Of a stretch of DNA of 64,000 bases, positions 40,001 to 60,586 are shown piece by piece (positions within the stretch are counted from its first letter, which is position 1; every line of letters begins with the position of its first letter). The stretch lies in assembly GCA_937922785.1 (NCBI GenBank), contig CALAJQ010000018.1:121855-185854 (forward strand), given 5' to 3'. The stretch is from an uncultured Acidimicrobiales bacterium. Its GTDB lineage: Bacteria; Actinomycetota; Acidimicrobiia; Acidimicrobiales; SZUA-35. Under the pieces are notes generated by a model. It was not told the origin of the DNA and did no database searches. It worked only from the letters and a program-made list of their open reading frames with translations. The position numbers and the translations under genes were made by a program.

Positions 40001-43000
40001 ACCCCCGGTGTACGCAGCTCCGCCCACACCACTCAGGTCCATACTGAGTTCGATGTGCTTGGCCGCCCGTTCCGAGTCCAGGATTGGGGCTACCTTCACA
40101 CAACTTCAGATGATCGGACTAGTTTCACTAGCTACGTAGTGCCTGAATACAAACTAAGCAGCTACGACAATGACGCCTGGGTCGTGTCACCAGTCCAACT
40201 GGAAGCCATCAAATCTGACATCACAACCGATGGATCTTGGGGTAACTGGATCTCAGCGGACATCTACAACTATGACAACCACAGCTATGACACCGAACCG
40301 ACGTACGGTCGGCTCACCATGGCGAGAGTTCAGGTCACTAGAACTGGTAGCGGATCACCGGTCTTTGGGGATCAGACCAACTACACCCACACCTACAGGG
40401 GTCAGGTCGCAACCGAAAAACATCTTGGAACGCTAAGCAACCCAGCTGACGATCAGCAAACCGTCTTTGCGTACCACTCAACATACGCCTACCTGACAAG
40501 TGTGAATGGGCCGCTAGACAACGACACGACCGCCTATACCCGCAAGGCTGAATTCGGCACGCCGCTAGTAACGACCGCGCCCAACAACCTCGTGACCGTG
40601 GCCACCTATGACGGCCTCGGCCGAACTAAGACCGTCAAGCTTCCTGGAGTCTCGAACCCCAGCTACAAATTCAGCTACTACACCCATGAGTTCCATGCCG
40701 ACAGCGTCAAGACCGAGACAATCGGCGACGGGTCCAGCTACACAGCAAGCTGGATCTACACAGATGGCTTCGGCCGGTTCATCCAATCTCACAACGAACA
40801 CCAAGGCCAAAACTGGGCGAACGTGACAGCCGCAAAATATGACGCAAACGGGCGATCCAATTCCAAACACAACCAATCTTCAACACATCATTAACACCAG
40901 GGCAATTTCAAGAAATCGACTGGAACAACCCGCTAGTACCGCGGACGAAGTTCTCATACCCCACAAACATCGGGAAAGGCTGTAACACCGGAGCGAACAT
41001 CAAAACAGAATCGTTAAGACAAAACGGGACCGTACGAGCCACCACCTACAGCCAGCAGTGCGGAACCCTCAACCGGTCCTGGGATGCCAACAACAAGCAA
41101 ACCGCCACCAGACACGGAGCACGCGGCCGAATCGACGCCATCAACGACGGCGAAGGCCTAACCGATCCAATCCGAACCGAATACACCTACAACGACCGCG
41201 ACCAGATCGTCAACATCAAAGACGACCACAACAACAACATCGTCTACGAATACAAAGACTGGAACATACAACAAACCAAAATCATCGACCCAGACCTCGG
41301 AACCATCACCTACACATACGACGACCACCTAAGACTCAAAAAACAGATAGATGGACGAGACCAGGGAGTCGACAGTGCCAACACCAAATCCGAACTGATC
41401 ATCGAGTACAACAAGGCTGACCAACCGACCAAAGCAACACATGACGGTGCACTCGCAATGGAGTGGACCTATGACGGACTTGGCCGACTCAAAACCACAA
41501 AAAACCGGAACCTAACCATAAACAGCACAGTCAGGGGAGAAGTCACCCAAGCCTTCACATACAACAATCAGGGACTCATCAAAGATTCAACCCTGACAGT
41601 ACCCGGTCTGACTTCGCAGAAAATGGCTATGACCTACCGCGACTCAGGCTCTCTCTACACCACCAAATACTCCCAAGGCGGGGGTGCAACTCTCGAGACT
41701 GTCACCGTCGGATACAACCAGCTCGAAACCCCAAACTGGATCGGCGTCCGAAACGGAACCAATCCAAACACACCGGCAGCATCATGGATCGGCTACGACG
41801 CCCACAACCGAGTCGAGTATCTAAACCGCGGAGTCTCAACCAGCCCAGGCGCCCTAAACACCAGATTCCGTCACGCACCCGAGACAGGCCTACTCGACTA
41901 CATCAGACACTACAGCCCCGACGACATGGCAAACCAAAAACTAGCCACAACCTGGGATCCCAACGGCAACCTACTCTCAATAAGAGAGAACGAAGCCATC
42001 ACATCCCAGTACCAGTGTTTCGAATACGACATACACAACCGACTGGACCTAGCTAGAACAAGCACACAGGCCTGTGATCAGCCAATCGTCTGGGGCGGTG
42101 AATCGCCCTACTACGTCGACTACGGCTACAACAACATCGGCAACATCACAGGCGCCTGGGGCGCAAACACACCCAACGGCCCCTACAGCTACGGCGCCGG
42201 AGACGCCGGACCCAACGCCGTAACATCAGCCGGGCCCACCGGACCAGGACAGACGCCATCCACCTACGCCTACGACAAGGGCGGGAACATGATCTCAAGA
42301 ACGAGGGGAGTAACCACAGACTTCTTCTACGGCGTACAAGGAAAGCTCATACTCACCAAGGAGGGCGGGAACGACAAATCCTCCTACCTCTACGACGCCT
42401 CGGGAAACCGCGTTAAACGAACCATCGGAAACGAATCGACCTACTACCACGGAAGCCTAGAGATCACCCAGAGCGGAGGCTCGAACAGCCGCAAGCTGGT
42501 GCTCTCGGCAGCTGGGCAAGCGATTGGTATGTGGCAGAACGGTCAACTAACAACCCTCGCCACAGACCACTTAGGCTCAGTTGGAGTGACCCGCACCAAC
42601 AGCGGTACCATCGATAGGCAGCGCTATCTTCCGTCGGGCGGACCACGGAACGCTGCCCGCACAAACATGCTAGCTCTTGACCAGACATTCACCGGCCAGA
42701 CGGACGACCCAGGCACTGGGCTGATTCACTACGAGGCCCGCATGTACGACCCGTACCTTGGTCGCTTCACTCAAGCCGACACGATTATCCCGGATCCCAC
42801 AAATCAAGCTGACCTCAATCGCTTCAGCTATGTGCGGAACAACCCACTTGCGTATACCGATCCATCAGGCAACGATCCATGCTTGGTCGGACCAATGGCA
42901 CACAGCTTCTCCTGCGGTATATACGGGGCTGGAAACTCGGGTAGCAGCGAAGGAAACCGTCGCAGTTTCCCTGGGTTCGAAGAAAGCGGCAAACCTCTTG

Positions 43001-43929
43001 AACCCACTGCAGGTCCAACGCAACCAGTATTGGACACAGGCAAGGACCTGCTCAGAACCGGGCTATTCGACGAGCGCTCGTGCCGCTCAAACGGTGGAGC
43101 TGGAGGTCTTGAGGTGGACACCGGGTGTATAGCAGAAGTTCTGACTTCGATCTCTCCTTGCAAGGCGCTGATCAAAGCGCTGTGCCGAGCAGTCGGGAAC
43201 TCAGCGAGACGACTGATCCCGGTCCGGAAAGTGCCAACTCGAGTGCCTGCATGCCTTCGATCGTTCTCACGTGACACAGAGGTCTTACTCGGAGATGGAG
43301 TTACGTCGAAGCCTATCTCGGAATTCGAACCTGGCGACGAGGTTTGGGCCCTCAACCCCGAGACCGGAGAGTCAGGACCCCGACGAGTCGAGGCCGTGTG
43401 GCCACACCACGATTGGCTCCTTTCCCTGGAGGTCGAAGGGGGGTCGGTAACAACGACGGAAGACCACCGCTTCTGGAATCTCTCGGATAACGAGTGGCAG
43501 GAGACCCAGCACCTCGACCCCGGCGACTTTTTGATTACACCGCTGGGTGACCGGGTAGAGGCCGGTTCGCTTGACTGGACCACGCTGCATTTCGACGAGG
43601 CATATGACCTCACTATTCAAGGAATTCATTCGTACTTCGTAGACACCGGCAACGACGACGTACTAGTGCACAACTGCGGCGATCTCCAGTCGGCGATTGA
43701 GCGTGGTGCGCGCATATTCGACACCGGTGGTGCCCACCTTCCGGAAGCCGTAGTTCGAAACTTGAAGAACAACCACGGCGTCAGCGAACGCCTTGCCAGT
43801 GCGCGGATTCACGCCATCAAAAAGGGCATAGAGGGGAATCCAGATCTGGCCATATCACTTTCCGGAGACGTGTGGGATCCTCGGTCGGGCGACTATCTAG
43901 GCAGCCTGACGCAAGGCGGCGGCGGGTGA
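37058..43929 (+). CDS. Rhs/YD-repeat polymorphic toxin with Hint domain (~2290 aa), interrupted by one frameshift at ~40855
   Basis: Signal peptide; YSIPVPP..GPSPSLS.SYSSGSVDG N-terminus; YD repeats; second frame open from ~40843; ARMYDP..GRF.Q.D; NNPLAYTDPSG; Hint SFSRDT...VLVHN/C. Confidence 0.9.
43261..43674 (+). other. Pretoxin Hint autoprocessing domain
   Basis: SFSRDTEVLLGDG...TTEDHRFW...YDLTIQGIHSYFV...VLVHN followed by Cys. Confidence 0.88.
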
Positions 43930-44183
43930 GCTTAGCGGGTGAAGACGAGTTGAGACCGTACGTAATCCTGAGGATTGACGTTGCTCTGATCGGTTCACAA
44001 CCTTCTGAGGCTGTAGCGGTCAAAGGCTTTGCCGTTGACCGCAAGCGGGCGGAAGCTGAGGTGGATCGCCTCAACGGACTCGGCCGCACCGACCGTATCT
44101 ACGTTCATCGGGTCGCCCGGGGAATCGAGTCAGTCATGGTCAACGATGACGGTAGCGAAACGGGCTCGGGGATATTGGAGTGA
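43926..44183 (+). CDS. Putative cognate immunity protein of Rhs1
   Basis: GTGA overlap with the toxin stop codon; 85 aa. Confidence 0.65.
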   Translation: MSLAGEDELRPYVILRIDVALIGSQPSEAVAVKGFAVDRKRAEAEVDRLNGLGRTDRIYVHRVARGIESVMVNDDGSETGSGILE

Positions 44184-44666
44184 GGGAACACAGATATGCC
44201 TCAGATGTACGAGCCGACTGGGGAGCGTTTATCCAGTATCCTTGGACCTCGCAAGTTATAGTCCATGTCAAGTTCAACCGTTGCGCCCCAAGCACCTTGC
44301 AGCACTCCAACTCCTCACGGCCTTTCAGGCTGAGGTGCCGATCGGCAGCGACTTTAACCCGTCATGAATGTCCGGGCATCGAGGATCGCGCTGGTGCATT
44401 TGTGACTGGCCGCCTGTCTGAGGATGAGGCTGCTGTGAGGGCGATTGGGCCGCGCGAACCGGGTTGAAAGGCTGGAGTTTCTATCGCTGTCGAGTGCTCG
44501 ATACTATGTGATCACGGGGGCGAACTCTAGAACAAGGCACAGTGTCTCAAGTTCCCTGCCCGCTGGCTACTCGGGCCTAGGTGAGCGAATCAACTTGGAC
44601 ATTTTCACTGGACCACTAAACCGCGATCTGGCACATGTAACGTTCTACCCTACAACAGGCGGATAA

Positions 44667-44975
44667 GTGAGGAGCAGAATGACTGATAGTTGGATAGATC
44701 TCGCGCAGGTAGGGCGAGCTTCCATGGTTCAGCGCGCCGAGCGCAAATTTCCTAGCGTGTGTATCCAGGGAGACACACTTTATACCTGGCTTCGGGAGAT
44801 TACCGAGGTCCTTGCTCAGAGCCAGGCTCAAGCCAACGAGCAGCTGCAATTCCACGCCAAAGAGCTGTATGCAATCGTGGATACTTATGCTCGGTTGTGT
44901 CGTCAAGCATCCCGCCCGGTGCCCTTTGAGTGGCCAGATCCTGCAATTGAGGAAGAATTGCTTGAGGTACCTTGA
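44667..44975 (+). CDS. DUF6959-like putative orphan immunity protein
   Basis: VQRAERKFPSVCIQGDTL motif; follows a toxin-tip-like remnant. Confidence 0.65.
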   Translation: MRSRMTDSWIDLAQVGRASMVQRAERKFPSVCIQGDTLYTWLREITEVLAQSQAQANEQLQFHAKELYAIVDTYARLCRQASRPVPFEWPDPAIEEELLEVP

Positions 44976-45013
44976 GCCTTAGACGGGTTGATCGTCTGAC
45001 GTAACGCTCGGCA

Positions 45014-45956
45014 CTACGGCGTACAACAGCCGGACAAGCGATTGGTATGTGGCAGAACGGTCAACTAACAACCCTCGCCACAGACCACCTCGGCTCGGTT
45101 GGAGTCACCCGCACCAACAGCGGGGCTATCACTAGACAGCGGTATCTACCATCCGGCGGGCCCCGACACCGGTCTCATGCACTACAACGCACGCATGTAC
45201 GACCCCTACCTCGCCCGATTCACGCAGGCCGACACAATTATCCCAGACGCCACAATCCAGGCCGACTTGAACCGCTACTCGTATGTCCGGAACAACCCAC
45301 TCCGGTTTGTCGATCCAACGGGCAACTGTCCGAGGAAATACCACAACACGCCTATGTGCTTTGAGCTTGATCAAGCAGAGCGTGAGGGTAGAGCTGGTGG
45401 ATTTTGGCCTGACTATGACGACTTCCCAGAAGGCACTGATCCAGGGCAGTATCTTGAGCCAGCCCAGACCTATCAACTCAGCAACTGCATTCCCACTAGA
45501 TTCGGCTGCGACCCTATAGTTCAGAACAACAGGGTCAGCCGATGGACTTCCCCCGTACTAGTATTTTTTGAGTTCTGCCCACAGCACTTAAGCAGCTGTT
45601 TGTATTACAAGAATCGTGCTACCGCAAACGCTGCGGCGGATGAGATATTTGGAAAGGATGAGGGTAACGAAAGGGGTGAGGAGAAGAACGCATTCAAGCA
45701 CGCATACTGGATGGCCCTCCAATCCCAAGACACCAACGCCGACTCTGCCTATTTACTGGGTGAAACCTACGAACGGTATAAGACTGACGGGATCGTGGAC
45801 ACTCAGAAGGATATGCTCAACAACCGTGTGGGAGCGACGATTGGGTCACACGTGAACAAATTGGCGCCTAGGGGTTTGGTAGCGAACGTCGTACTGACAG
45901 CCCTAGAAGGAGGGTTTCTATATTGCCAATCGGGGGAAGTGATTAGGGCTTGCTGA
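45014..45956 (+). pseudogene. Orphan Rhs core fragment + alternative C-terminal toxin (DUF6973-like)
   Basis: Near-identical to 42509-42640; NNPLRFVDPTG; NAFKHAYW...DMLNNRVG; no Rhs N-terminus. Confidence 0.8.
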
Positions 45957-46519
45957 CATTTTTTCGATTCCTGTCGATCTCCTGCGGGCTGTGCGTGATC
46001 TATCTGATTTGGGGTGCGGAATCGATGCCTGGTGGTAGTGAGGCTGGCTGGTTCTATGCGTCCTTTTGGTTCCTCAGTCTTCTATTCACTACTAGTGCTG
46101 ACATAGTGGTTTCGGTCAGGGGGCAGAAGGCCTCCGACTTTCGTATTCCGCCTCTCTCATTGGCACCCATCGCTGCGGTCGTACTAGTTCTCTCTATCGC
46201 ACTGGTTTTTTCTGTACCTGTTCGAGCTCGGTTCTGGCTTAGTGAATCGGAGTTCGCGGAGTTCGCGCAACAGCTCGACTTAGCAGAAGGTGAGTCTGTT
46301 AGGGCTAACCGGGAGGTGGGCTCGTACCGCGTGACAGAAGTGTCTTGCAGGGAAGGTTTTCTAGTTTTCTCGATTGCCGGTGCTGGCGGGTTCGACCGGG
46401 GTGGAGGGTTTCTCACTGCGAAGTCGGGTGGTTTGAGTCCAGACACTGTTGAATTCGAGACCTTGCTTGTATCTCAAGATCTGACCGCAGAATGGTTCTC
46501 TTTTTCTACGACCAGCTGA
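45950..46519 (+). CDS. Membrane protein, putative immunity for the orphan toxin
   Basis: Overlaps the toxin stop; 3 TM helices plus soluble domain. Confidence 0.65.
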   Translation: MLTFFRFLSISCGLCVIYLIWGAESMPGGSEAGWFYASFWFLSLLFTTSADIVVSVRGQKASDFRIPPLSLAPIAAVVLVLSIALVFSVPVRARFWLSESEFAEFAQQLDLAEGESVRANREVGSYRVTEVSCREGFLVFSIAGAGGFDRGGGFLTAKSGGLSPDTVEFETLLVSQDLTAEWFSFSTTS

Positions 46520-46999: not shown

Positions 47000-47830
47000 G
47001 TGAGTTCGCGGCACAAACAGGAGTTCTGCGGTGCACTCACGGCCTCAGGTAGCGCTTGTTCACGACAGGCAGGTTGGGGTCTGCCCGGGATGAATACCGG
47101 CACCTGCCGTGACCATGGGGGCCACACGGCAGCCGGTCTCAGTGTTTCGAATCCGTCGGAGCGCATGAGCACTGCGATTCAAGCGTGCCTTGTTGAATAT
47201 CAAATGCTTCGCAACGATTCCCGGTCGGCTCTCAGTACTCAGGCCAGCTTACTGACTGCGGTAGCAGCCTTCTTTGGTGCGCTTGCCGTCGTGGCTTCAG
47301 ACGGCGAGGGATTGCCTTCGATGCCGGACCCAATATGGTTTTGCCTCCCAATAATTCCCTTTGCTCTCTCAGGCTGGATTCTTTACCTGGGTCAACAGAA
47401 CTCATTGCGCACAGTCGAATCTCTTGGTATCGAGCGTTTCTTAGCTCGACAGATTGGAGTGTCCTTCAATCATTCAACGGGCGAGGCCTCTGTCGCTACC
47501 GACCCCAAGAGGACCGATCACTTTGCCGGCGACAGAGTTCCTGTTGCCTCCCATACACACTTGCTACTGCCACACCTGCGCGCTTTCAACGGAAATCATG
47601 CAGCCACCTATCTTCTGTGCACCGGCGTCTTCACAGGGGTGGTGTCGCTCGCCTTCGTCACATACCTCGCCGTTTACGGCGCATCCGAATTACCCTGGAG
47701 GATTGCGACTGGTGTATTCTACGGATGCCTTATTGGCTTTTTTCTATTGTCGAGTCACCGGAATTTCGTAGCTCCCCGGAAGCATCTCGAGATGTCCTTG
47801 AGAATGATGTCAGACTCAGCTAGTCGCTAA
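47000..47830 (+). CDS. 4-TM membrane protein with N-terminal HGGxSTG-like Cys/His motif
   Basis: CGALT.SG..C...AGWG....G.CRDHGG, then EYQMLR and four hydrophobic helices. Confidence 0.7.
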   Translation: MSSRHKQEFCGALTASGSACSRQAGWGLPGMNTGTCRDHGGHTAAGLSVSNPSERMSTAIQACLVEYQMLRNDSRSALSTQASLLTAVAAFFGALAVVASDGEGLPSMPDPIWFCLPIIPFALSGWILYLGQQNSLRTVESLGIERFLARQIGVSFNHSTGEASVATDPKRTDHFAGDRVPVASHTHLLLPHLRAFNGNHAATYLLCTGVFTGVVSLAFVTYLAVYGASELPWRIATGVFYGCLIGFFLLSSHRNFVAPRKHLEMSLRMMSDSASR

Positions 47831-48179
47831 ACGGTGTTGGTCGCTTTCTAAACACCTTCAGATGGCCGGCGGATTTCGTCGCGCTGATGACATCGGTCTC
47901 CGCCCAGTCGTCCGATGACCGTGGGTTACCTCCATGGGAGTAATCGAAAGTGTAAGTAGCTAGCGGGTCAACAGAACCATCGGTATCCGCTTGAACATCA
48001 CGGCCGAGTCGCAGACAGCGGAGTCACGAATCCCGCCCGGGAAAGAATGTGCCTGAGCTTTGTAGTCAGTCCAGGGGTAGTTTGCTGGCTGTATCTGAGC
48101 ACCACAGGGAGACCTCTGGACATCCGAATCAGGGTCGGCAACAATAGGATCGCCTTCGGTTGGTGGCAAAGCCTCAAAC

Positions 48180-48500
48180 TCAAGTCGCTATCTCGACGCC
48201 TCGGTCTTCACTCTCTGCCTCTTTGATCGCTTGTTCGACCTCATCAACTGACGCAACAATGTCAAGTGCAAGGTAGTCTCTGAGCTTCCAGTCGAGACGG
48301 CCGTCATGTGGATCGTAGATCCGAAAGGACGGTTTGATCGAGTTGAGGGGGGCAGGGGTGACAAGTTGGTCTGTGTCGCTCAAGAGTTCTGGCATGCTCT
48401 TGCGAATGACTCCCACAATCGCTCTGATTGTCCTAGCCCGGCAATCGGGGTCTCTGAACAACGGAGCCGGTTCGCGAGATGATTGTTTAGCCTTGTTCAT
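48180..48500 (-). CDS. Hypothetical protein
   Basis: ORF from MNKAKQ. Confidence 0.45.
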   Translation of the reverse strand: MNKAKQSSREPAPLFRDPDCRARTIRAIVGVIRKSMPELLSDTDQLVTPAPLNSIKPSFRIYDPHDGRLDWKLRDYLALDIVASVDEVEQAIKEAESEDRGVEIAT

Positions 48501-48712
48501 GTATGTCCTATAATGGCTGAGCCGCGAGATCTTGTAAATCGTCAAATCGACAACGATGCTGATTACCCAGCCGGACAACAATTGCAGGCCCGGGCCTGAT
48601 GTTCAAATAGAAGCGTATCGGGTGTGGATACTCTGTGCATAAGATCGCGTTCGGGCAGCTCGACCTGTGGACAGTCAACCCACCTGCGTGAGAGATTCAA
48701 GTTCGGGGTTTT

Positions 48713-50380
48713 CTACTCGGGTGCTTTCGGTTCATTGAAAGCGGCGACGAGCCCCACTAGATACACTTCGAGTTCCTGAATAAACTCTTCGGCCAACTCT
48801 GACTGAGTCTTGCTCATCGCTTTGGACATTCTTTGAGCTTCGGGTCTGTCCGAAAAGGCGACAAGGGAGGGGCGGATCTCGCTTGCTCTCGACAACGTGA
48901 ACCTAATCGCTTTGCCGTTCTTTCTGCGATCCAGCCATGAGAACAGATCATGATGCCGTCTCGGTGCAATTCCCATGAAGGGTTCAAATGTTGGCTTGCT
49001 GCCATTTCCAGTGGGCGGAGCCTTCTCGACTAAGTTGACCTCGCCGCCAAAGAAGTGCTCCGCTTTGCTCTTCGGATAGGGCTCAAGGTAGACGACCCTC
49101 GTTACGCCCGATCCAATAATGTGTCGGGTGCATTCGTGGCAGGGATGAGTAGTTACGTACATCGACGTCCCATCTGTGCCAGCCTGTCTTCTGGCCGCAC
49201 TTAGGAGTGCCGACATCTCTGCATGCATAGCAGGATCAAACTCGACCATTGAAAAGAATTCTGCAAGGCGCACGTCGTCTTCTTCCATCAGGACTTTTAC
49301 AAGTCGATTAAGGTCTTTGGGCTTGCTGACGGATTCCAAGAGGCTTGCACCGGCAGGACTCGCAGTAAGTTCTTGCGAGTTCATCAATCGCGACACGAGA
49401 TCGGTGAATATGCGCTGTTTTTCGGCGCCTGAGATGTCTGATTCCTCGCGAAGTGATGAATCAGACTTGTCGGTGCCATATGTCAATTGACCGCCGCGGG
49501 CGCGCGGCATATCGTTCCGTCCGGTCGCCACGAGGTCTTCTCCGCTGTATAGCGATGCTCCAACTCGCCTTGGTAGGGCGGTGCTCTGAGATGCGGCCGT
49601 GAATGCCTGGGCTATACCGCACTCGTCTTGCTTCGCGATTCCGAACGGGTCCGAAAAAATTAATCGGACCAATCGATCGATATCTTCCAATACTGCGTCG
49701 GAGCTGCTCTCTCCGTTTATGAACAGGTCTCCTTCGAAGAATGTGTCTTCGATGCTAAGTCTTTCAATCGGTTTCGTAGAGACCTCATCGAATTGATCCC
49801 TGTACTCGTGTGGCCAGCCTCTGTCCCGGAGCATCAGATCTTTCGCTAGCTTGCTGGCGATCTTGGACACCTTTTTATCAGACATGTCCGCGTTGCTGGA
49901 CGTGATGTCCGACTCAAGATCTCGAATTATGTTCTGCCTGCGCGATTGCTCCGAACGAAACACTGAAACTAGGAAGAACAGGCTGCCGAACAGGTTTCGG
50001 TAGAGTGACACTTCAGCCTCGTGCATCAATGACTTAATCAGGAATGCTCTGCCCCGCCTCCCCTCAGATAGCTTCACGTTACGGCGATTCTCAGCAATCG
50101 CATTCACGCCTAGCCTTGCGACGCCGCTCTTTTCTTGGGTTCGAATCCAGTCACCCTTGCTCATGAGGACGTTCCTTCGAACGTACTCTTGCGACTTTGA
50201 GTCCATTGTTCCTCGGGGATCAGGAACAGCCGTTGCCAACAGCTCGCTGAGGCGAACTACCTCAAGCTGATAGCCAGCGCGCTCAAGCGACGCGCGAAGT
50301 CCTGATTCGACCATGTCCAAGTCAGTACCCATGGCTTTAACCGTCGCAAAATAGAGGTCCGGAGATTCGTGTTCGGTCAT
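48713..50380 (-). CDS. Anti-phage dCTP/dCMP deaminase (AvcD-like: P-loop-kinase-like + deaminase domains)
   Basis: N-terminal MGTDL, IKSL.H..EV..YR..FG..F, L..RD, DTF...D.FI; C-terminal VGA, G.ND.P, HAEMSAL, TTHPCHEC.RHII..G...VVY.EPYPKS. Confidence 0.88.
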   Translation of the reverse strand: MTEHESPDLYFATVKAMGTDLDMVESGLRASLERAGYQLEVVRLSELLATAVPDPRGTMDSKSQEYVRRNVLMSKGDWIRTQEKSGVARLGVNAIAENRRNVKLSEGRRGRAFLIKSLMHEAEVSLYRNLFGSLFFLVSVFRSEQSRRQNIIRDLESDITSSNADMSDKKVSKIASKLAKDLMLRDRGWPHEYRDQFDEVSTKPIERLSIEDTFFEGDLFINGESSSDAVLEDIDRLVRLIFSDPFGIAKQDECGIAQAFTAASQSTALPRRVGASLYSGEDLVATGRNDMPRARGGQLTYGTDKSDSSLREESDISGAEKQRIFTDLVSRLMNSQELTASPAGASLLESVSKPKDLNRLVKVLMEEDDVRLAEFFSMVEFDPAMHAEMSALLSAARRQAGTDGTSMYVTTHPCHECTRHIIGSGVTRVVYLEPYPKSKAEHFFGGEVNLVEKAPPTGNGSKPTFEPFMGIAPRRHHDLFSWLDRRKNGKAIRFTLSRASEIRPSLVAFSDRPEAQRMSKAMSKTQSELAEEFIQELEVYLVGLVAAFNEPKAPE

Positions 50381-51543
50381 GAGAAGTGCCTGAGCCAGAG
50401 ATCTGCTATACGTCGGCGACTATCTTGACTGACCTCGGAGACATCGTTGCCAGCTTGTTTCATCTCGCTTAACGCAGCGATCATCTCGGCTTGAACGAGG
50501 TAGATGTAATCGCCCACTACTGCACCGTGAAGGAAGTTGACCGCATTGCCTTCGTTGATGAGATAGAAGTGGTGGTCATCCGTGGTGAGAATCTCAAGGT
50601 GCTCGCCAATCGGATTCCGCACGTGATCCATTGCCAGAGCTGCTAGGTCTAGCTCGCTATCTGATGAGGTCACTGTGAACAGGAAGGCCCCGGGCCTGAT
50701 CTGATCAACCAGTACTTTCGTGAGAAAGTTGGCTCCTGTCGCACCGACGATTAGTTCGGCATGGGGGAGTGTTTCGGATGCCGTGCCAACCTGGAAGCCG
50801 AGCGAGTGCGCCTCCACAGCTCTGATTGGGTTCGTATCCACCACCGCGACTCGTACCGCATTGCGCCTTAGTCCCTCCGCAACGCTCCTGCCAACTTTCC
50901 CGAACCCGAAAACTACTGCCGAGCGACCTTGCACGATTTGACCGTTAAGGCGTAGCACATGTTCCGCCGAGTGGTAGACCGCCTGGCCCACCAGGTAGTC
51001 TTCGGTGTTCTTCAACGGGCTCCTCGCCACTGAAAGTACTTTCAGGTCGAGCTTCGCTGTTTCGTAGACTTGAAGTCCGTTCTCTGTGTCCTCGACGACT
51101 CCTATGACATCGTGGACATCCGCCATCGAGCCATCCGTGAGTCCTCCTGCGAAGTACCCACCGATGTCCAACAATGCGACGGAACGCCCCGGGGCGGACA
51201 GCTTCAAATATTCGTCTAGGCCCTCGGTACTTCCCAGGTCGCTGCGGTCCGCGACACGCACGTCGAATCCACTTGCTTTGAGTTCGTCGATGGTTTGCAT
51301 GTGACCCGACTTGGGTTTTGCGAAAACTACCTTGAGATCCCCGACCTTTTCTAGCGCCTCCAGAAAGAACGGTCGATCTGCCAGAACGTGTGTAACGACG
51401 TAGATATCAGTAGGTTCGCCCAGAGAAAACGAAGCACAAACATCATCGAAGAAGTTTCGTATCCTACGATCTTGTAAGGTCGTTCTGACTGTGGCCACAC
51501 GGTCCTCCTCGATGCTCCACCCTCCATCGACCGCTGGGCACAT
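50377..51543 (-). CDS. Adenosylhomocysteinase-like NAD-dependent enzyme (alternative GTG start 51498)
   Basis: THVL, LDIGGY, VEDTENG, SVARSPLK..ED, GFGKVG, GATG, NEGNAVNF parallel AHCY catalytic and NAD motifs; ATGA-coupled to the deaminase. Confidence 0.8.
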   Translation of the reverse strand: MCPAVDGGWSIEEDRVATVRTTLQDRRIRNFFDDVCASFSLGEPTDIYVVTHVLADRPFFLEALEKVGDLKVVFAKPKSGHMQTIDELKASGFDVRVADRSDLGSTEGLDEYLKLSAPGRSVALLDIGGYFAGGLTDGSMADVHDVIGVVEDTENGLQVYETAKLDLKVLSVARSPLKNTEDYLVGQAVYHSAEHVLRLNGQIVQGRSAVVFGFGKVGRSVAEGLRRNAVRVAVVDTNPIRAVEAHSLGFQVGTASETLPHAELIVGATGANFLTKVLVDQIRPGAFLFTVTSSDSELDLAALAMDHVRNPIGEHLEILTTDDHHFYLINEGNAVNFLHGAVVGDYIYLVQAEMIAALSEMKQAGNDVSEVSQDSRRRIADLWLRHFS

Positions 51544-51803
51544 TCCTTTAGGACCAGATTGTCTGCTGCCGGGTCAACCGTCTGCGCTTGACTACCGATC
51601 CGTAGTGCCATTCGTGCAGTCCGGAGAGTTCAATGTTGAGCCCGCTCCCTATTCGTACCACAGTCGGCAAGCTAGGCACTCGGGAGCAGCGCTGAAGGTT
51701 CGAAGAGCAGGTAGGGTGGCGGTCAGTTGCCTCAGATACCAGTGCGCTGATCCTGCAGACAGCTGAGTAGTGGACATGACGCGAGCTGCAAGTAGCTAAA
51801 TCC

Positions 51804-52208
51804 TCACCGTCCGCGACTAGCCGAGCTAACCAATGCAGAGTTCGGCAAAGATGCCAGCAGTTGGCCAACAATGAGCATTAAATCGACCATTCTAATCGGT
51901 TCGCCATTTCCGCTGATTTGATCCATAGTGATCAACTCAATTCCTAGAGCGCCGCGCAGGACGTGATCTTCAGGCAATGCGTCGTAGGCAGCCCTAACGG
52001 AACTAAGCATCATTGGGGTTGCTGGCTCGAGGATCTCCTGCTCGTTGTCACCGTCGACGACGCGTTGGAGATCCTCATGTAGCTGCTTCATGCGTCTTTG
52101 GTGCGATCGGTCGGCCATGACAACGAGTATGCCCTCGAAGTTGATGGTTGCGAGTAGCGCATCATGACGCACTACTCCTTCAGTAGTAGGCTCTTCACTA
52201 GCGGTCAC
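51804..52208 (-). CDS. Hypothetical protein
   Basis: Helical ORF upstream and co-oriented with the AHCY-like gene. Confidence 0.5.
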   Translation of the reverse strand: MTASEEPTTEGVVRHDALLATINFEGILVVMADRSHQRRMKQLHEDLQRVVDGDNEQEILEPATPMMLSSVRAAYDALPEDHVLRGALGIELITMDQISGNGEPIRMVDLMLIVGQLLASLPNSALVSSASRGR

Positions 52209-52698
52209 AAAATGATGCAGAAAGTTGTTGACTAACGATTGAGCCGAGGATTTGCGCCCCGAAACTAAATGGGGCCTGCGGCGTCGATCAGCTCTAGGAC
52301 TGGTTTCGGAGCCCCGCGAGTCTAACTTGATGCTGAATTGGTCTCGCCTAATAATCGGATTTCATCCACGCGTTGCCGAGAACGCAACGAGCTCCTGCAC
52401 TTTGCGGTATGCAGCTTGCTTAGTTCACCCTTCATTTAGACCCCTACACTCACACTCACAACTGCTCGTTTCTGAGTCTGGTGCACGATGTTAGTGATGG
52501 GGGAGGGAACAAGGAGTGTTGAACGAACCAAGTCAGCGTCGTAAGTCTCAGCCGAGGGTTGCGGCTCGATGACTAGTAGCTGATTGGAGGGTCTTTTTGG
52601 TGCAAGAAGCTAAATCTAGAAGCAGATGCTTGCTTCTTGAATAAACCCTGACTAGGTTCCGTTCGGTTAGTTCGGCAATCGAAGTTCTGAGGACTGGT

Positions 52699-55600
52699 AT
52701 GGCTTCCAAGCGCTCTGTTTCATTCGTAATCTTCGTGGCTTTTGCGCTTCTGGCGTCGCTCGCTTCACCCGTCGGGGCGCAAACTGTCCCGTCGGATGAT
52801 GGTGAAGGTTTTGAGATTCCTGCTGGCTCAAGTGAAGGGCCCGGGCTAGAACCCCTGCCAGCTGAGGCTGCGGCTGCGGAGCTGTCCTCACCGGTTGGCA
52901 ACGTTGATCAGACTCCGCCGACGGTGTCAGATGAAATGGGGTTCATTGAGTCGACCGAGGAAGTTCCGGTCGTACTTGCTGGCGAGCAGATTGGTGAGCG
53001 TGGTGTTGCGAGCGATGTTTGGGACACGACCGATGGCGGTCTGGTTGTTCATGCCTATGGTGATCTGACCTACTTTGATGACGGCAGCGGGGGGATGGCG
53101 CCGATCGACCTGAAATTGTCTCCGATCAACGGACGCACCGATTGGTTCGAGACGACAGCCAACTCATTTGCAGTCAGGTTTGGGCCGATGTCGGGTGAGG
53201 GCCCGGTTGAGTTGACTCTTGCTGATGGTTCTGAAGTGAAACTGATTCCGACGGTTCCCCCTGGCCGTATTTCGAAGGTCGAGATGGAGGTCGACGCCGA
53301 GCTGGGGGTTGTTACCTATGTGGACGTGTTCCCTGGTGTAGATCTTCGCTATTCGGCGACTCCGACCGGGTTGAAGGAAGACATCATTCTCAATCGTCGC
53401 GGCAATGTCCCTCGTTTTGAGACGATCATTGAAGGAGTCGACCTTGACACTGAGTTGGACAGCGAAACAGGTCTGTTCCTGCCGATGGAAGCCAAAGGGC
53501 AGAAAGCTGTCGACCGTAAGCCCGGAAACGCAATCCCGGGTGGTGTCGCACTGGGCCAGCTCTTGATTGAAGACAGTAAGGGTGCGCCGATCGACAATAA
53601 AGATGCTGGTGCGGCCGTTGAGGTGACGAAGGGTCAAGGAAAGGGTGATGGCAACATTCGATCGGCTGTGTCAGTCGAAGTGTCTGAGCAATGGCTGTCT
53701 GGGTTATCTGCAGACGACTACCCGATTGTCTTGGACCCTGGTTACTACGCGGCTTGGGCTATCGCTACCGGAAACGCTGCTCCGACGTCCAAGTGGCATG
53801 GTTCAACAGGAACCTCTCACAACAATATCCACGTTGGCAACTCTCGTTCGCCGAGCGGGCCGAACGGTGACTCGTTTTGGCGGGCTCGGATGCAGTTCGA
53901 GGTCGGGCTGTATGGCGGCACGCTGTCTGGTCTTGCGGACTTGGGCTGGGGAGTTACGTCTGCAAAGGCGAAGCTTCAGTTTGCAGCTGGCACGCAATCG
54001 ACCCGTAATGTATGGGCCGGATGGGACGACGCCGCTCCCTATGAATGGCCTGGAATGTATCCCGGACGGTACGCCTCGCAATATGACACAGCGCCAGTAG
54101 GCGGCTCGACGGGCGGCAATGCAGGAACTGCGCATGAGTGGAATATCCCGATCACCAACGTCGCTCGGAAGTGGCTGAACGAGGAAGTCGACCAGCCGTG
54201 GCTGACGCTCAAAGGCGACGAAACGCCAGGTGTATATACATACAAGCGGTTCAGTAATGTTGCGATTGAACTGTTTCTCCGCAAAAAGCCGACGCGGCCT
54301 GCACCCGCGTCACCCGCTGACAATCTCGTCACTGCTGATGAGACTCCGACTCTCACCTCAACCCTCTCGTCGCCTCAAGAGACAGGGCAACAGGTTGCCT
54401 ATTGGTTCAGGATCTCCACTGCTCCGGGGGTTGACAACGGCCAGATAGTCGCCGATTCGGGTTGGACGGGCCAATCTTGGACAGTGCCAGAAGGAATTCT
54501 GCAGGACGGCGTCAAATACTATTGGAATGTTAAGTCAATCGACACCGTCTACGGCATCTACAACAACACTATTCCGTCCTCGGTTCGTTCTTTCACACTG
54601 AATCGGCGGCTCGGAACCGGCGACCCAACTCAGGCGTATGAATCATTCGGGCCAGGCACTGTCAACCTCGGCAACGGCAACTACGTAGTGTCGGTCGGTT
54701 CATCTGGCTTCGATACTTTAGGCGGGTCCATTTCTGCAGGCTTGACGTTCAACAGCCAACTAAAGCAGGACCATGGTCTGATCGGCACCTATTCAAGTGA
54801 TCCCAATCACAACGGCCTCGTCGATAACGGTGAAGTTCCGTGGGTCAAAAGGATCGAACGACCTAACTTCGATTGGGGCGAAGAATCTCCATCTGGTGCT
54901 GGAGTAGGTCAGGTCGACTGGTTCGTGACGCATTGGGACGGGTTCATCCAAGTCCCCGCAACTGGTGTTTACAAGATGGGTGCCACCTATGATGACGGCG
55001 CCAAGATCGTGGTCGGCGGGACCACGGTATTGAACAAACTGAACGGGACGCCATCTACTGCCGACTATGGCACCTCGAAAACGTTGACAGGGGGCCAGTT
55101 CATCCCGATCCACATTGAGTATCGGGAGAAGACCGGTTCAGCGCGATTCAAGCTACTGATCAAATGCCAATCTGGTGGCTGTACTTCGACTTACCCGCAA
55201 CTGGGAACCAATTGGTCTCTTGAAGTGCCCTCTGACTGGTTGAGTCCAGAGCCGTCAGTCCTCCCAGAGGGCTGGTCGCTAGGAACTTCGGCGTCGGGCG
55301 GCCGTGGCTGGATTGAAGCCAAAACCGTAGGCAAAGACGTGGTCCTGAAAGACTCGTCAGGACTCTCGTCACGCTTTGAGTATGTATCTCCTGGCTCGTG
55401 GAAAGCCCCGAAGGGTGAGTACTCGACTCTAACCAAACCAAGCGGAGGCGAATACACGCTCCAAAGCGATGACGGCTTCACCTACGTTTTTAGCGCTGAC
55501 GGCAAGCTTGACTCGACAAGTTCACCACTTGATATCGGCAACCCAACGCTTCCTCAGGTCATAAAAGATTCGAACGGTCGAGTCTCGGCTGTGAAGGACC

Positions 55601-58600
55601 CTGTATCGGGTCGTCAGATGACATTGGTCTATTCGGGTTCCGGTATCTGTCCGACCCACCCATGGACTCCAACCGCATTCGATCCCGCACCGAGCGGGAT
55701 GCTATGCCAAATCAGATATCCGGACACGACCAGCAATATCGAAACGGCAACGACGATTTGGTACAAGAACGACCTGATTTCACGGATCTGGAATCCAGGG
55801 GTCGAACAGTACGACTTAGGCTGGACGAACGGCCAACTTGTCTCAGTGGTCGATCCGCATGTAAACGACGCGTTCCGGTACGGAGTTGCAGGAGTTTCTG
55901 CGGCGGATGCTCCCTGGCAGATGCAGTACACCTCCGACCGGCTATTCAAAGTGATTTCTCCGCTGCCAGCGTCTGGCCAGCTGAAATCAGCAGCCCAAAT
56001 CATTTACGGCACCAATCAGGCAACGCTTCAGACTAAAGGGCTGGCATCAACGAACGTCTACGGAGCAACGCGCACTGTTCACTTTGAATCAGACACACTG
56101 CGCTCAACGAAAACAGTCGGTGCAGACGGAACGGTGGTGGAACAGGGCTGGAATCCAAACGACTCGCTACAATGGAGCAAAGACGCCGCAGGTCGAAAGA
56201 CGACTTATCACTACGATCCGCTTGATCGACTCACAGACGTATATGGTCCTGCGCCAGGGTCTTGCTTTGGTGGCAATCAGTTGCCGAATGGAAGCTGTTC
56301 GAACCCGAGTGTTGCTCATGTGGAAACAGCCTATGAAGAAGGGCTCGGAGGGCTAGCGGTCAGCGTATATGGCAACCGGAATTTGGCTGGTAGTCCGACG
56401 AAATTCTCATTCGACTCCGACACTTCGATAGACACAGCTGGCCTACCCGTCGGCTCCGATTTCTCGGTCCGTTACACAGGCAAGTTTTACACGACTGGTG
56501 GGGCGAACTTTGACACATTCACGGCCTGGTTCCACGGTGGAGCACGGATCTACGTTGACAACGTCGAAGTGTTCGACCAGTGGGAACAAAACAAGAGCTG
56601 GAATCCAGCAGCGGTTGGGAACGTGACCCTGACCGCGGGTTGGCACGACATCCGGATCGATTATCAACCAAAGACAGACGGCACGCGAGCCTTCTATATG
56701 CGGTTGGGAGGATCTCCCGGGGCAGGAGCACCTTTGGCCGGTACAGCTTTGTCGCCGAGCTATGACCTCGCGACGTCAAACACCGCACATGATGATGGTG
56801 GCTCTGCACCATCGATGACTAACAAATCGACTTTCGGAGAGCCTTGGCTTGGTTTGGCGACCCAATCCAGAGTTGATCCCAACGGGCTGAACCTGACAGC
56901 GAACATGATTTACGGGGCGACTTATAATCGACGCGAGACTAGATCGATGCCTAACGGCAATCAATGGACCTATCAATGGTATGGACCGAGCGAGGCGCCA
57001 GTAGCTAACACGTGTTCCAACGCAGCGTCTTCCCAAGCTGGTATGGCGAAGACCCGCTACTACCAGAGCGCTGCGAACCGTCCTGACACGTACGTGTACG
57101 ACATAATGGGTCGACAAGTGGGTCATAAGTCTGGCTTCGCTGACTGGAGCTGCACCTACTTCGACACGCGAGGCCGAACTTCGCAGACAGACCAACCTGG
57201 TAACCGGATCTCCTACTACTCCTACGCGCCCAGCAACAACCCGATGTACACCCACATCGGCGAGACTATTAACGGGACGAATACGGGCACAACGGTGATC
57301 AAGACCGACCTCCTCGGACGCGAGGTCGAGTATCGGGACGAATCCGGCACCGTCACCACAACCAGCTACGACCGGACAGGACGGGTAACGACTTCAACTA
57401 CAACCAAATCGGGTTCAAGTATCACAAACGGCATCACGTACGACCAATTCGGGCGAACCCAAACCCAAACAATAAACGGCGCCGCGGCGGCAACAACCAG
57501 CTATAACACTGACGGTGAGACCTCGACTATCACCTACAGCCACGGACCAGGGGTGACGACGACCGCTACGATCAGCCGTGACAACCGCCAGGGCCAAGTC
57601 TCGGGTGTCATCTATGGCCTTAACGGCAGCACTCTGACCGAGTCAGTGTCAAGAAGCCAGTCCGGCCGAATCAAATCTCACACAACCAACGGTTCTGCCT
57701 GGAGCTACAGCTACGACGCAGTCGGCCGACTCAAGACCGCTGTGAGGGGATCAGACAGCTACTCTTACAACTACGATGCCAACTCAAACCGGACATCAGC
57801 GAACTTGAACGGATCCAGCGTCTCCTACCAATACAACACCCTCGATCAACTTGCCTCATACACAGGCATGACAGGGAGTATCGGCTATGACACGGCCGCT
57901 AACACGATCGGTGTCAACGGGTTGACCTTGGGTTGGGACGCCAGCGGCCGCAACACCGGGATCACGAGTCCGGGCGTCAATGTCAGCTACATCCGAGACT
58001 CAAGCGATCGGGTTAAGCAGCGTTCCGACAACGGCGTCCTCAGCACCTACCTATATGACAGCTCTGCAGACGCACCGATCGGAATCACACTCCCCGGAAG
58101 CGTCAACGTTGCAGAATGGTACGTCCAACTACCAGGCGGCGTTCTCCGAACCGTCAAGCCGGCAGCACCGGACAGCTGGCTGTACCCGAACCTCCACGGT
58201 GACACGCTGGCCACCGTCGATACTGCAGGTCAACTGACTGCGGGTCCGTTCGTATACGGGCCATACGGAGAGAAGATCGGGTCGACCATGGCAAACCAGA
58301 CCGCCATCAACGCCGACTATGGCTGGGTAGGGCAGCACCAGAAAGCCACAGAAACACAACTGCAGAACATCATCCAGATGGGGGCGCGGCCCTACCACCC
58401 CGAGCTTGGACGGTTCCTATCGGTCGACCCCGTCGAAGGCGGAACACCTAATGATTACGCCTATGTAACTGATCCGATAAACAGTTATGACCTCAACGGG
58501 ATGTGGGGAATACCCAATCCAATCAAGGCCGTCAAAAAGGCAGCAAAGGTGGTTGGCTCAACTGCGGCGTCGGTTGGAAAGTTCGTGGACAAACACAGCG

Positions 58601-59037
58601 GCACCATTGCCACTGGTCTTGCGATCGCGGCAGTAGTGGTCTCGGCTGCTACTCCTGTGGGAATGGTGATACTGGTAGCTGCTACTGCGGCCGCGGCATA
58701 CGACACACAAAAGGTGTGTAGGAGCGGCGATGGCGTCGGATGTGCACTCGGCGTCGTAGGAACCGTGACCGGAGGCACGGGTGGACTATTCCAGCGAGTT
58801 GGTTCAAAAGTTGCGAAGTTTGGAAGGGTCAGGCTTGCGGCTGGCCAGTTGACCGGTTCCAAGTTTTCCGGTGTTCGCAAATTCCTGCCGAGACTCGGGA
58901 GGATTCCGGGAAGCTTCAACCGGATCGGCGGCAGGGCACTCGAACGGGCGGGAACCTCTCTGACAGGCCTCGGCAATCGGTTGACAAGACGGGGCGCAGG
59001 AGTTGCCGCGGGTGCTTATGCCTGGTCCTTCCGATAA
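52699..59037 (+). CDS. Secreted Rhs polymorphic toxin with two PA14 domains and a hydrophobic/basic C-terminal tip
   Basis: Signal peptide; GLKEDIIL; PA14 motifs (FDWG..SP...F...WDGFI...DDGAKI; FSVRYTG...GGARIYVDN); YD repeats; [31 protein letters not shown]. Confidence 0.92.
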
Positions 59038-60560: not shown

Positions 60561-60586
60561 ATCAGCCCATTGCGTACACTTGTTTT

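What the first reader, a model, noticed from the sequence alone, without database searches (positions are those of the whole stretch)
48713..52208. Adenosylhomocysteinase-like enzyme translationally coupled to an anti-phage dCTP deaminase
Seen: an AHCY-fold gene retaining His/Asp/Glu/Lys/Asp catalytic equivalents and the NAD motif overlaps (ATGA) an AvcD-like kinase-deaminase gene; a small ORF lies upstream. Known: AvcD/dCTP deaminases deplete dCTP, and in Vibrio are held by the upstream AvcI sRNA; AHCY performs NAD-dependent 3'-oxidation/elimination on nucleosides. Inference: a candidate undescribed two-enzyme nucleotide defence system in which the AHCY-like protein occupies the AvcI position and depletes a second nucleoside, makes a modified nucleotide or signal, or regulates the deaminase.
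Basis: partly seen in the sequence, partly recalled or inferred. Interest (0 to 1): 0.75.

Follow-up and report, generated by a model that had tools for sequence, protein, structure and literature searches.

The report
AHCY-like enzyme coupled to dCTP deaminase
A re-tooled relative of S-adenosylhomocysteine hydrolase is translationally coupled to an anti-phage-type dCTP deaminase inside a defence island; the pairing was seen only here, but the enzyme's family always travels with nucleotide-cleaving partners, which suggests an unstudied kind of nucleotide-directed defence enzyme.

Summary
A 388-aa AHCY-fold gene (50377-51543, minus strand) ends in ATGA, which starts a 555-aa AvcD-type dCTP deaminase (48713-50380).

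The AHCY-like protein is not the housekeeping enzyme. It scores 74-85 bits against cut-offs of 275-498, lacks two AHCY histidines, and the genome has a true ahcY elsewhere.

It belongs to a large uncharacterised family (743 clusters at E<=1e-30). Its usual partner is a nucleotide phosphohydrolase:
- Nudix adjacent or fused in about 129 of 160 loci
- CYTH in 9
- HD on Lactiplantibacillus plasmids
- one dUTPase-fold DCD

The same domain also sits at the N-terminus of long proteins, most with STAND NTPase and/or TPR hits.

The exact pair was not found again: 0 of 164 AHCY-like loci hold the deaminase, and 0 of 48 deaminase loci hold the AHCY-like gene.

The window is a defence island, and the deaminase sits where Nudix normally sits.

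My best reading (0.45) is a one-off variant of a nucleotide-targeting two-enzyme module. The scan has noted the AHCY-like+Nudix cassette before on other DNA. I found no paper on it.

The parts
50377..51543 (-). AHCY-like NAD-binding enzyme (388 aa; an alternative GTG start at V16 gives the 373-aa database form). Member of an uncharacterised 'EDTENG-motif' AHCY-like family.
   Evidence: Pfam PF00670 at 60.8 bits. NCBIfam ahcY models give 73.5-85.4 bits against cut-offs of 275-497.6. 995 homologues in the protein search. Family motifs. PDB profile match to SAH hydrolases at E 1e-29. AlphaFold2 model and Foldseek search.
48713..50380 (-). AvcD-type (P-loop-kinase-like plus zinc deaminase) anti-phage-type dCTP deaminase, 555 aa.
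   Evidence: PADLOC dCTPase at 340.5 bits. NF041025 at 286.1 bits, below its cut-off of 400. 26-31% identity over 88-95% of its length to plasmid genes annotated 'anti-phage dCTP deaminase'. HAE and PCHEC are invariant.
50377..50380 (-). ATGA overlap of the stop and start codons (translational coupling).
   Evidence: Read directly. The same 4-nt overlap joins the AHCY-like gene to Nudix in 51 related loci.
51544..51803 (-). 260-nt spacer upstream of the AHCY-like gene. Presumed promoter region of the two-gene operon (inferred).
   Evidence: No sigma-70-like site was called here. No Rfam family matched.
51804..52208 (-). Orphan 134-aa ORF upstream. Possibly a real gene; not shown to belong to the unit.
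   Evidence: Its codon score of 0.147 is the best of six frames. No Pfam, PADLOC or NCBIfam hit. No Atlas hit. No tblastn match in 160 related loci.
48180..48581 (-). Orphan 133-aa ORF, 131 nt downstream of the deaminase. Membership unknown.
   Evidence: Codon score 0.132. No family hit. No Atlas hit. A weak terminator-like hairpin at 48598-48585 lies between it and the deaminase, but such sites are no more frequent here than in shuffles.

Best explanation
This is a two-gene, co-translated nucleotide-targeting operon in a defence island.

The downstream enzyme is an AvcD-type deaminase. As in its characterised relatives, it would convert dCTP/dCMP to dUTP/dUMP and starve phage DNA synthesis. 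That activity is recalled from Tal et al. 2022 and Hsueh et al. 2022 and was not read here.

The upstream enzyme belongs to an uncharacterised offshoot of the SAH-hydrolase fold. It keeps the bound-NAD 3'-oxidation machinery (Lys, Asp, Glu, Asp, His) but has lost two histidines of the hydrolase. I infer that it oxidises the 3'-OH of a nucleotide sugar. It would then eliminate the 5' substituent (phosphate or polyphosphate in place of homocysteine) or epimerise the sugar. Either route irreversibly removes or poisons a nucleotide pool.

In the rest of the family the partner is a phosphohydrolase acting on nucleoside phosphates (Nudix, CYTH, HD). Here the deaminase takes that slot.

Shown: the anatomy, the family membership and the partner pattern. 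Inferred: the chemistry, the substrate, the defence role and the cooperation of the two enzymes.
For: - ATGA overlap. The same junction joins the AHCY-like gene to Nudix in 51 loci.
- About 129 of 160 related loci have Nudix adjacent or fused. That is 94 within 300 nt, 17 more where my ORF caller over-extended the Nudix start, and 18 fused. Fusions occur in both orders.
- 9 loci have a CYTH/triphosphate-tunnel partner.
- An HD phosphohydrolase overlaps the AHCY-like gene on a L. plantarum plasmid and on a viral contig.
- In L167 the overlapping upstream gene is PF22769, a dUTPase-fold 'dCTP deaminase-like' protein (E 1e-35). This is a second, non-homologous link to dCTP/dUTP enzymes.
- No Nudix or CYTH gene lies anywhere in the 64-kb window.
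- 13 long proteins (686-1584 aa) carry the same domain at the N-terminus. Of the 12 scanned, 8 have NB-ARC/AAA, DUF7779 and/or TPR hits. All 13 domains score 174-318 bits on the family profile, and in the 10 that aligned in full the family motifs are kept.
- The window holds other defence genes: a type II methyltransferase, a mad8-like ATPase, a PDC-M41/M30 candidate pair, an IrrE/RmrA-like protein, and Rhs toxins.
- The genome has a true ahcY (601.7 bits) elsewhere.
- AgmF shows that the fold can perform NAD-self-sufficient oxidation and elimination on a non-SAH nucleoside (PMC8599513, passages read).
Against: - The exact pair is a singleton. The deaminase is in 0 of 80 genome loci, 0 of 80 metagenome loci and 0 of 4 viral-contig AHCY-like loci.
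- 0 of 48 deaminase loci have the AHCY-like gene, and they share no conserved upstream protein.
- The nearest AHCY-like relative (L089, 48% identity; sister at SH-like support 99 on a FastTree tree, with both on long branches) shows no deaminase in the 295 nt left on its contig.
- AvcD-type deaminases are described as working alone or with an sRNA (recalled).
- The AHCY-like protein hits no PADLOC model, and the STAND fusions hit none of note.
- Part of the family lies in sugar-nucleotide or secondary-metabolism-like clusters with a cytidylyltransferase and an epimerase.
- No substrate, product or phenotype is known for any family member.
Confidence: 0.45

Rival explanations
1. Chance operon. 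A self-sufficient single-gene AvcD-type defence deaminase landed directly behind an unrelated AHCY-like gene in a crowded island. The two are co-transcribed but work independently. The AHCY-like gene might itself be a solo defence or metabolic gene that lost its Nudix partner.
For: The pairing is unique in 164 AHCY-like loci and 48 deaminase loci. Deaminase relatives have no conserved protein partner. The nearest AHCY-like relative, L089, shows no same-strand partner. Both genes are sporadic: the AHCY-like gene was found in 1 of 401 genomes of the phylum sample, which was G000 itself, and deaminase relatives in 3 of 400 other genomes of the phylum sample and 1 of 400 of the class sample.
Against: The 4-nt overlap falls at exactly the junction where the family's partner gene normally starts. 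The usual partner is missing from the window. The replacement is again a nucleotide enzyme, and another family member pairs with a different dCTP-deaminase fold.
Confidence: 0.3
2. Nucleoside-analogue or nucleotide-salvage metabolism, not immunity. The AHCY-like enzyme and a nucleotide-processing partner make or recycle a modified nucleoside, as in actinomycete nucleoside-antibiotic clusters. The deaminase here acts as a tailoring or salvage enzyme.
For: A review describes the Ara-A branch of the pen cluster as holding two SAH-hydrolase homologues (PenD, PenG), the phosphohydrolase PenF and an MFS transporter (PMC12648386, section 2.1 read). PenF prefers ara-AMP (PMC11592144, abstract and passages). 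L. plantarum plasmids carry MFS transporter, HD phosphohydrolase and AHCY-like genes in a row. Some Streptomyces loci add a cytidylyltransferase and an epimerase. AgmF is a tailoring dehydratase.
Against: The deaminase is a full-length match to the anti-phage family, not to ComEB/Dcd housekeeping enzymes. The surroundings are defence and toxin genes, with no biosynthetic cluster. The STAND-type fusions fit a triggered effector better than a pathway enzyme. I did not test whether PenD/PenG belong to this family, because no sequence was available.
Confidence: 0.15
3. Regulator or antitoxin. The AHCY-like protein binds the deaminase and holds it inactive, taking the role of the AvcI sRNA, and releases it on infection.
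For: The upstream position and translational coupling resemble antitoxin-toxin gene order. No Rfam RNA matches the region.
Against: The protein keeps a full set of catalytic and NAD-binding residues and belongs to an enzyme family whose partners vary. Nothing shows binding.
Confidence: 0.1

Closest known systems
Anti-phage dCTP deaminase (AvcD/DcdV; PADLOC 'dCTPase', NCBIfam NF041025)
   Same: The downstream gene matches over its full length, has two domains, and keeps the HAE and PCxxC zinc motifs. It lies in a defence island.
   Different: It scores below the NCBIfam equivalog cut-off (286 against 400). Its closest relatives are only 36-41% identical. It is preceded by an overlapping enzyme gene, whereas 47 related loci show no shared upstream protein. 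The AvcI sRNA and dCTP depletion are recalled from the literature and were not tested.
Canonical S-adenosyl-L-homocysteine hydrolase (AhcY, TIGR00936)
   Same: Same fold and NAD domain. Lys, Asp, Glu, Asp and His equivalents are kept.
   Different: 73.5 bits against a cut-off of 497.6. Roughly 40-90 aa shorter than the solved SAH hydrolases listed (407-498 aa). 'EETTTG' becomes 'EDTENG'. The 'GHFD' His becomes Ser and the 'TGHP' His is not conserved. New invariant basic residues appear (R57, K76, R174, R198). The genome has its own ahcY.
AHCY-like + Nudix cassette or fusion
   Same: Same protein family by motifs and profile. Same 4-nt coupled junction.
   Different: Here the Nudix gene is absent from the window and an AvcD-type deaminase stands in its place.
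AgmF, the SAH-hydrolase-like NAD-dependent dehydratase of angustmycin biosynthesis (PMC8599513)
   Same: An AHCY homologue that does not use SAH. It uses tightly bound NAD for oxidation and elimination on a nucleoside (passages read).
   Different: AgmF keeps His299, which is essential and equivalent to the His lost here. It acts in a six-enzyme biosynthetic cluster. Its sequence relation to this family was not tested.
PenD/PenG with PenF and PenE of the pentostatin/Ara-A cluster
   Same: SAH-hydrolase homologues beside an HD nucleotide phosphohydrolase and an MFS transporter (PMC12648386 section 2.1; PMC11592144). The L. plantarum plasmid trio has the same gene logic.
   Different: Membership of PenD/PenG in this family rests on an earlier unchecked note (e1-4422441). 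I had no sequence to test it. No deaminase is involved there.
Avs-type STAND NTPases with N-terminal enzymatic effectors
   Same: Eight of 12 long proteins scanned place the AHCY-like domain ahead of NB-ARC/AAA, DUF7779 and/or TPR hits. That is the effector-NTPase-sensor order, which I recall from the Avs literature.
   Different: No PADLOC Avs model matched them. 'SAHH' and 'adenosylhomocystein' do not occur in the main texts of PMC7159879 or PMC12803255 (supplements not seen). The window's gene is not fused to a STAND module.

Membership tests
Canonical SAH hydrolase (AhcY) | Score above the curated equivalog cut-off | tested here: not met
   TIGR00936 gives 73.5 bits against 497.6. NF004005 gives 85.4 against 275.
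Canonical SAH hydrolase (AhcY) | AHCY fold with an NAD-binding domain | tested here: met
   PF00670 at 60.8 bits. Foldseek top hits are SAH hydrolases at E 2e-21 and TM 0.78.
Canonical SAH hydrolase (AhcY) | Full catalytic set, including the two histidines of the hydrolytic half-reaction | tested here: not met
   K178, D182, E151, D126 and H52 are kept. The 'GHFD' His aligns with S293 and the 'TGHP' His with D345. The roles of these residues are recalled.
Canonical SAH hydrolase (AhcY) | Is the genome's housekeeping copy | tested here: not met
   G000 contig 9 encodes an ahcY at 601.7 bits, above the cut-off, and there are two further paralogues.
Anti-phage dCTP deaminase (AvcD type) | Match to the defence-family models | tested here: inconclusive
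   PADLOC dCTPase gives 340.5 bits, E 6e-102. NF041025 gives 286.1 bits, below its cut-off of 400.
Anti-phage dCTP deaminase (AvcD type) | Two-domain architecture aligned end to end with annotated members | tested here: met
   88-95% of the query is covered at 26-31% identity in plasmid genes annotated 'anti-phage dCTP deaminase'.
Anti-phage dCTP deaminase (AvcD type) | Zinc-deaminase catalytic motifs HAE and PCxxC | tested here: met
   H386, A387, E388 and P413, C414, C417 are invariant in 21 sequences.
Anti-phage dCTP deaminase (AvcD type) | dCTP depletion on infection and phage protection | not testable with these tools
   Needs a phage challenge and LC-MS.
Anti-phage dCTP deaminase (AvcD type) | Upstream inhibitory sRNA (AvcI) as in Vibrio | tested here: inconclusive
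   No Rfam match in 47800-52800. I do not know whether Rfam holds an AvcI model. The upstream space is filled by a protein gene.
AHCY-like 'EDTENG' family (uncharacterised) | Family-specific motifs (THxxxDRP, PKPKS, DIGGY, EDTENG, ARSPLKxxED, TSSDxE, NAVNFxHG) | tested here: met
   All are present and invariant across 21 members at 40-48% identity.
AHCY-like 'EDTENG' family (uncharacterised) | Adjacent or fused nucleotide phosphohydrolase (Nudix, CYTH or HD) | tested here: not met
   No Nudix or CYTH hit in any ORF of 50 aa or more in the window. The best Nudix elsewhere in the genome scores only 100 bits and sits in a housekeeping context. The deaminase occupies the partner slot.

The most novel reading that the evidence does not exclude
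The 'EDTENG' AHCY-like family is a new class of immune effector. It would use bound NAD to oxidise the 3' carbon of nucleotides, then strip the 5' phosphates or invert the sugar. That either destroys nucleotide pools or makes polymerase-poisoning analogues. The family would be deployed in three formats: with phosphohydrolase partners, behind STAND sensors, and, as here, teamed with a dCTP deaminase for a double hit on phage DNA precursors.
Probability: 0.3. Interest if true: 0.85.

Novelty: new variant of a known kind. Interest (0 to 1): 0.62.

Why it matters
dCTP deaminases are treated as single-gene nucleotide-depletion defences. An instance hard-wired to a second nucleotide enzyme would show that such effectors can be combined.

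The AHCY-like family matters more. It is large (743 clusters at 50% identity with E<=1e-30) and mobile, occurring on plasmids, viral contigs and islands. It is annotated almost everywhere as 'adenosylhomocysteinase', and I found no study of it.

Its invariable association with nucleotide phosphohydrolases, and its fusion to STAND-type modules, make a concrete hypothesis testable at the bench: NAD-dependent nucleotide destruction or analogue synthesis in immunity. The misannotation also inflates apparent SAH-hydrolase counts in actinomycete genomes.

Tried and rejected
- Complex prediction of the AHCY-like protein with the deaminase gave no verdict: score 0.00 against a mark of 0.32, and controls were not run. 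It carries no weight either way.
- The look-up of sequencing runs listed no RNA holder. The only holder is the probable source run.
- A viral-contig scan with the single deaminase sequence found nothing. The alignment-based scan worked.
- The phage collection has no tblastn match to the AHCY-like protein.
- One search was meant to sample another phylum. It returned the same three hits, at the same coordinates.
- The idea that the 175-aa upstream ORFs in L121, L143 and others are Dcd-like was rejected. They are CYTH-like.
- The Atlas gave nothing for either small orphan ORF.
- Rfam gave nothing.
- Promoter and terminator scans were no better than shuffles.
- As a crude cross-check, none of the longest-contig lengths of the 11 closest deaminase relatives equals that of any of the 119 other listed AHCY-like proteins. 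This is weak, because only 120 of 995 hits are listed.
- Literature searches found no paper on the pair or the family:
  - dCTP deaminase + adenosylhomocysteinase + phage: 0 papers
  - adenosylhomocysteinase + Nudix + defense system: 3 irrelevant papers
  - SAH hydrolase / anti-phage / Nudix
  - arabinonucleotide / phage defense
  - STAND NTPase / effector domain / homocysteine hydrolase
- The contexts of the closest deaminase relatives (P0122-P0132) and of P0002 and P0003 could not be fetched.
Full report
**1. Observation**

On the minus strand, ORF 50377-51543 (388 aa) ends with TGA inside the ATG of ORF 48713-50380 (555 aa). The sequence reads …CACTTCTCATGACCGAA….

The upstream protein has the S-adenosylhomocysteine-hydrolase NAD domain (PF00670, 60.8 bits). 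A profile of 21 family members matches solved SAH hydrolases along almost the whole chain (E about 1e-29). An AlphaFold2 model (pLDDT 87.9, pTM 0.84) has SAH hydrolases as its best Foldseek matches (E 2e-21, TM 0.78).

The downstream protein matches the PADLOC dCTPase model (340.5 bits, E 6e-102). It aligns over 88-95% of its length with plasmid genes annotated 'anti-phage dCTP deaminase'. It keeps HAE and PCHEC.

The start of the deaminase is fixed by the conserved N-terminal 'ELYFATV' block eight residues in. The overlap is therefore real and not an artefact of start choice.

The small upstream ORF (51804-52208) and a small downstream ORF (48180-48581) both have coding-like codon use. Neither has a relative or family hit. 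I treat them as orphans of unknown standing.

**2. The AHCY-like gene is not ahcY**

- It scores 73.5-85.4 bits against NCBIfam equivalog cut-offs of 275-497.6.
- The same genome has a bona fide ahcY on contig 9 (601.7 bits) and two paralogues on contig 16.
- In the profile alignments, H52, D126, E151, K178 and D182 fall on the AHCY catalytic His/Asp/Glu/Lys/Asp (the human numbering is recalled).
- Aligned with the genome's own AhcY, the 'GHFD' histidine is Ser and the 'TGHP' histidine is not conserved.
- 'EETTTG' has become 'EDTENG'.
- New invariant basic residues appear: R57, K76, R174, R198.

The oxidative half of the AHCY machinery therefore looks intact, and the hydrolytic half looks remodelled.

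**3. The family and its partners**

The protein search gave 995 hits, mostly about 373 aa long. Many are named 'adenosylhomocysteinase' in Streptomyces, Frankia and others, at 40-50% identity. The exhaustive profile search gave 743 clusters (50% identity) at E<=1e-30.

I fetched 80 genomic loci (the best of 546) and 80 metagenomic loci (the best of 230). None holds an AvcD-type deaminase, by two tests:
- tblastn at 1e-5 and 1e-4
- a profile built from 52 deaminase homologues, run against every ORF of 60 aa or more

Instead, a Nudix gene follows directly in 94 loci, and 51 of those have the same 4-nt overlap. It is present in 17 more loci where my ORF caller over-extended its start. It is fused to the AHCY-like domain in 18. 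Pfam confirmed Nudix, and fusions in the opposite order appear.

Other partners:
- Nine loci have a CYTH/triphosphate-tunnel protein. The profile matches PDB 2fbl/3typ at E 1e-16.
- In L167 the overlapping upstream gene is a dUTPase-fold 'dCTP deaminase-like' protein (PF22769, E 1e-35), and a CYTH gene follows.
- 54 plasmid records hold a relative, 41 of them Lactiplantibacillus.
- One plasmid record (L176, L. plantarum) and one viral contig (L228) were inspected. Both carry an HD phosphohydrolase gene overlapping the AHCY-like gene, and on the plasmid an MFS transporter gene lies upstream.

A minority of loci sit beside a cytidylyltransferase and an epimerase or have no evident partner.

The rule is that the family travels with an enzyme that cleaves or converts nucleoside phosphates.

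**4. STAND-type fusions**

Searching only longer proteins found 13 of 686-1584 aa with the AHCY-like domain at the N-terminus. Of the 12 scanned, 8 have NB-ARC/AAA_22/AAA_16, DUF7779 and/or TPR hits behind it. Several of these hits are below the Pfam cut-offs. The other 4 have long unannotated tails. One more fragment has NB-ARC/nSTAND3.

All 13 domains score 174-318 bits on the family profile, against about 100 bits for true AHCYs. In the 10 that aligned in full, H52, K76, D-GGY, EDTENG, ARSxxKxxED and the NF motif are kept. On a FastTree tree they branch at the base of the family, well apart from true AhcY (descriptive only, with many long branches).

Enzyme, then NTPase, then repeat sensor is the layout of antiviral STAND proteins. 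That comparison is recalled, not tested. PADLOC gave no Avs match. Two STAND survey papers do not mention SAHH in their main text (supplements not seen).

**5. The deaminase side**

- Its closest homologues are 36-41% identical, and only 52 hits were found.
- Among 44 full-length viral-contig loci, 3 genomes of the phylum sample and 1 of the class sample, none has an AHCY-like ORF in the fetched flanks. No upstream protein is shared by more than 4 loci.
- Both genes are sporadic. The AHCY-like gene was found in 1 of 401 sampled genomes of the phylum, which was G000 itself (only 4 candidates per genome were scored).
- Deaminase relatives were found in 3 of 400 other genomes of the phylum sample and 1 of 400 of the class sample. 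The one same-family genome has none.

**6. Setting**

The window holds:
- a type II methyltransferase (12688-13692)
- a mad8-like ATPase (14611-16743)
- an IrrE/RmrA-like regulator (28606-29775)
- a PDC-M41/M30 candidate pair (31118-32903)
- Rhs/PT-HINT polymorphic-toxin cassettes on both sides of the pair (37055-46519 and 52699-59037)

No Nudix or CYTH gene occurs anywhere in the 64 kb. The best partner-type Nudix in the genome scores 100 bits and sits between a SulP-like transporter and an argininosuccinate-lyase-like gene. Those two identities are my reading of the translations, not a family search.

**7. Reading**

The specific pair is a singleton in everything I could examine, so 'a conserved two-enzyme system' is not supported. 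Three facts argue against a meaningless juxtaposition:
- The coupling junction is the family's standard partner junction.
- The standard partner is missing.
- The replacement is again a nucleotide enzyme, and an unrelated dCTP-deaminase fold is coupled to another family member.

I therefore favour (0.45) a variant module in which the AHCY-like enzyme acts on nucleotides alongside the deaminase. The chemistry is inferred from the retained AHCY residues, from the phosphate-handling partners, and from the precedent of AgmF, an AHCY homologue that does NAD-self-sufficient oxidation and elimination on a non-SAH nucleoside (PMC8599513, passages read). On that basis I propose 3'-oxidation followed by loss of the 5' phosphate or polyphosphate, or sugar epimerisation.

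Rivals:
- independent co-transcribed genes (0.30)
- nucleoside-analogue or salvage metabolism, as suggested by the pen cluster description (PMC12648386 section 2.1; PMC11592144 abstract and passages) (0.15)
- a protein regulator of the deaminase (0.10)

**8. Novelty**

The deaminase is a diverged member of a known defence family. The AHCY-like family is uncharacterised, and five literature searches found nothing on it.

This scan has already noted the AHCY-like+Nudix cassette and fusion on other DNA (e1-4422441, e1-992600, e1-4353982).

What I did not find in those notes or in the papers searched:
- the pairing with an anti-phage deaminase
- the CYTH, HD and DCD partner series
- the STAND-type fusions

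Noticed in passing
window 31118-32903: A DUF5131 protein (373.9 bits to PADLOC PDC-M41B/M30B) lies beside a divergently placed 356-aa gene with weak PDC-M41A/M30A hits. This looks like a candidate defence pair from the PADLOC candidate list.
   Followed up: no
window 37055-46519 and 52699-59037: Rhs/YD-repeat polymorphic-toxin cassettes flank the operon: a 2112-aa PA14+RHS protein, an 823-aa RHS+PT-HINT protein, and a DUF6973 C-terminal fragment followed by a likely immunity ORF.
   Followed up: partly
window 12688-16743: A type II DNA methyltransferase and a mad8-like AAA ATPase. Together with tRNA-Val at 9189-9265, they suggest the whole 9-60 kb stretch is an integrated island.
   Followed up: no
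L167:5408-7600: A three-gene string on a metagenome contig: dUTPase-fold DCD, AHCY-like, then CYTH, with overlaps. A minimal nucleotidyltransferase (Polbeta/NTP_transf_2) gene lies upstream.
   Followed up: partly
L176 (L. plantarum plasmid NZ_CP023307.1) 2936-6128: MFS transporter, HD phosphohydrolase and AHCY-like genes stand in a row. AHCY-like relatives occur on 41 Lactiplantibacillus plasmid records, though only this one was inspected. The gene logic is the same as described for the Ara-A branch of the pen cluster.
   Followed up: partly
G000 contig 16, 157661-160137 (L082/L083): Two tandem AhcY paralogues scoring 428.8 and 349.2 bits, both below the equivalog cut-off, in addition to the true ahcY on contig 9.
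   Followed up: no
window 60391-60476: Two tandem copies of a 43-nt repeat (93% identical), just upstream of and running 7 nt into the 2OG-Fe(II) oxygenase ORF (60470-61435).
   Followed up: no
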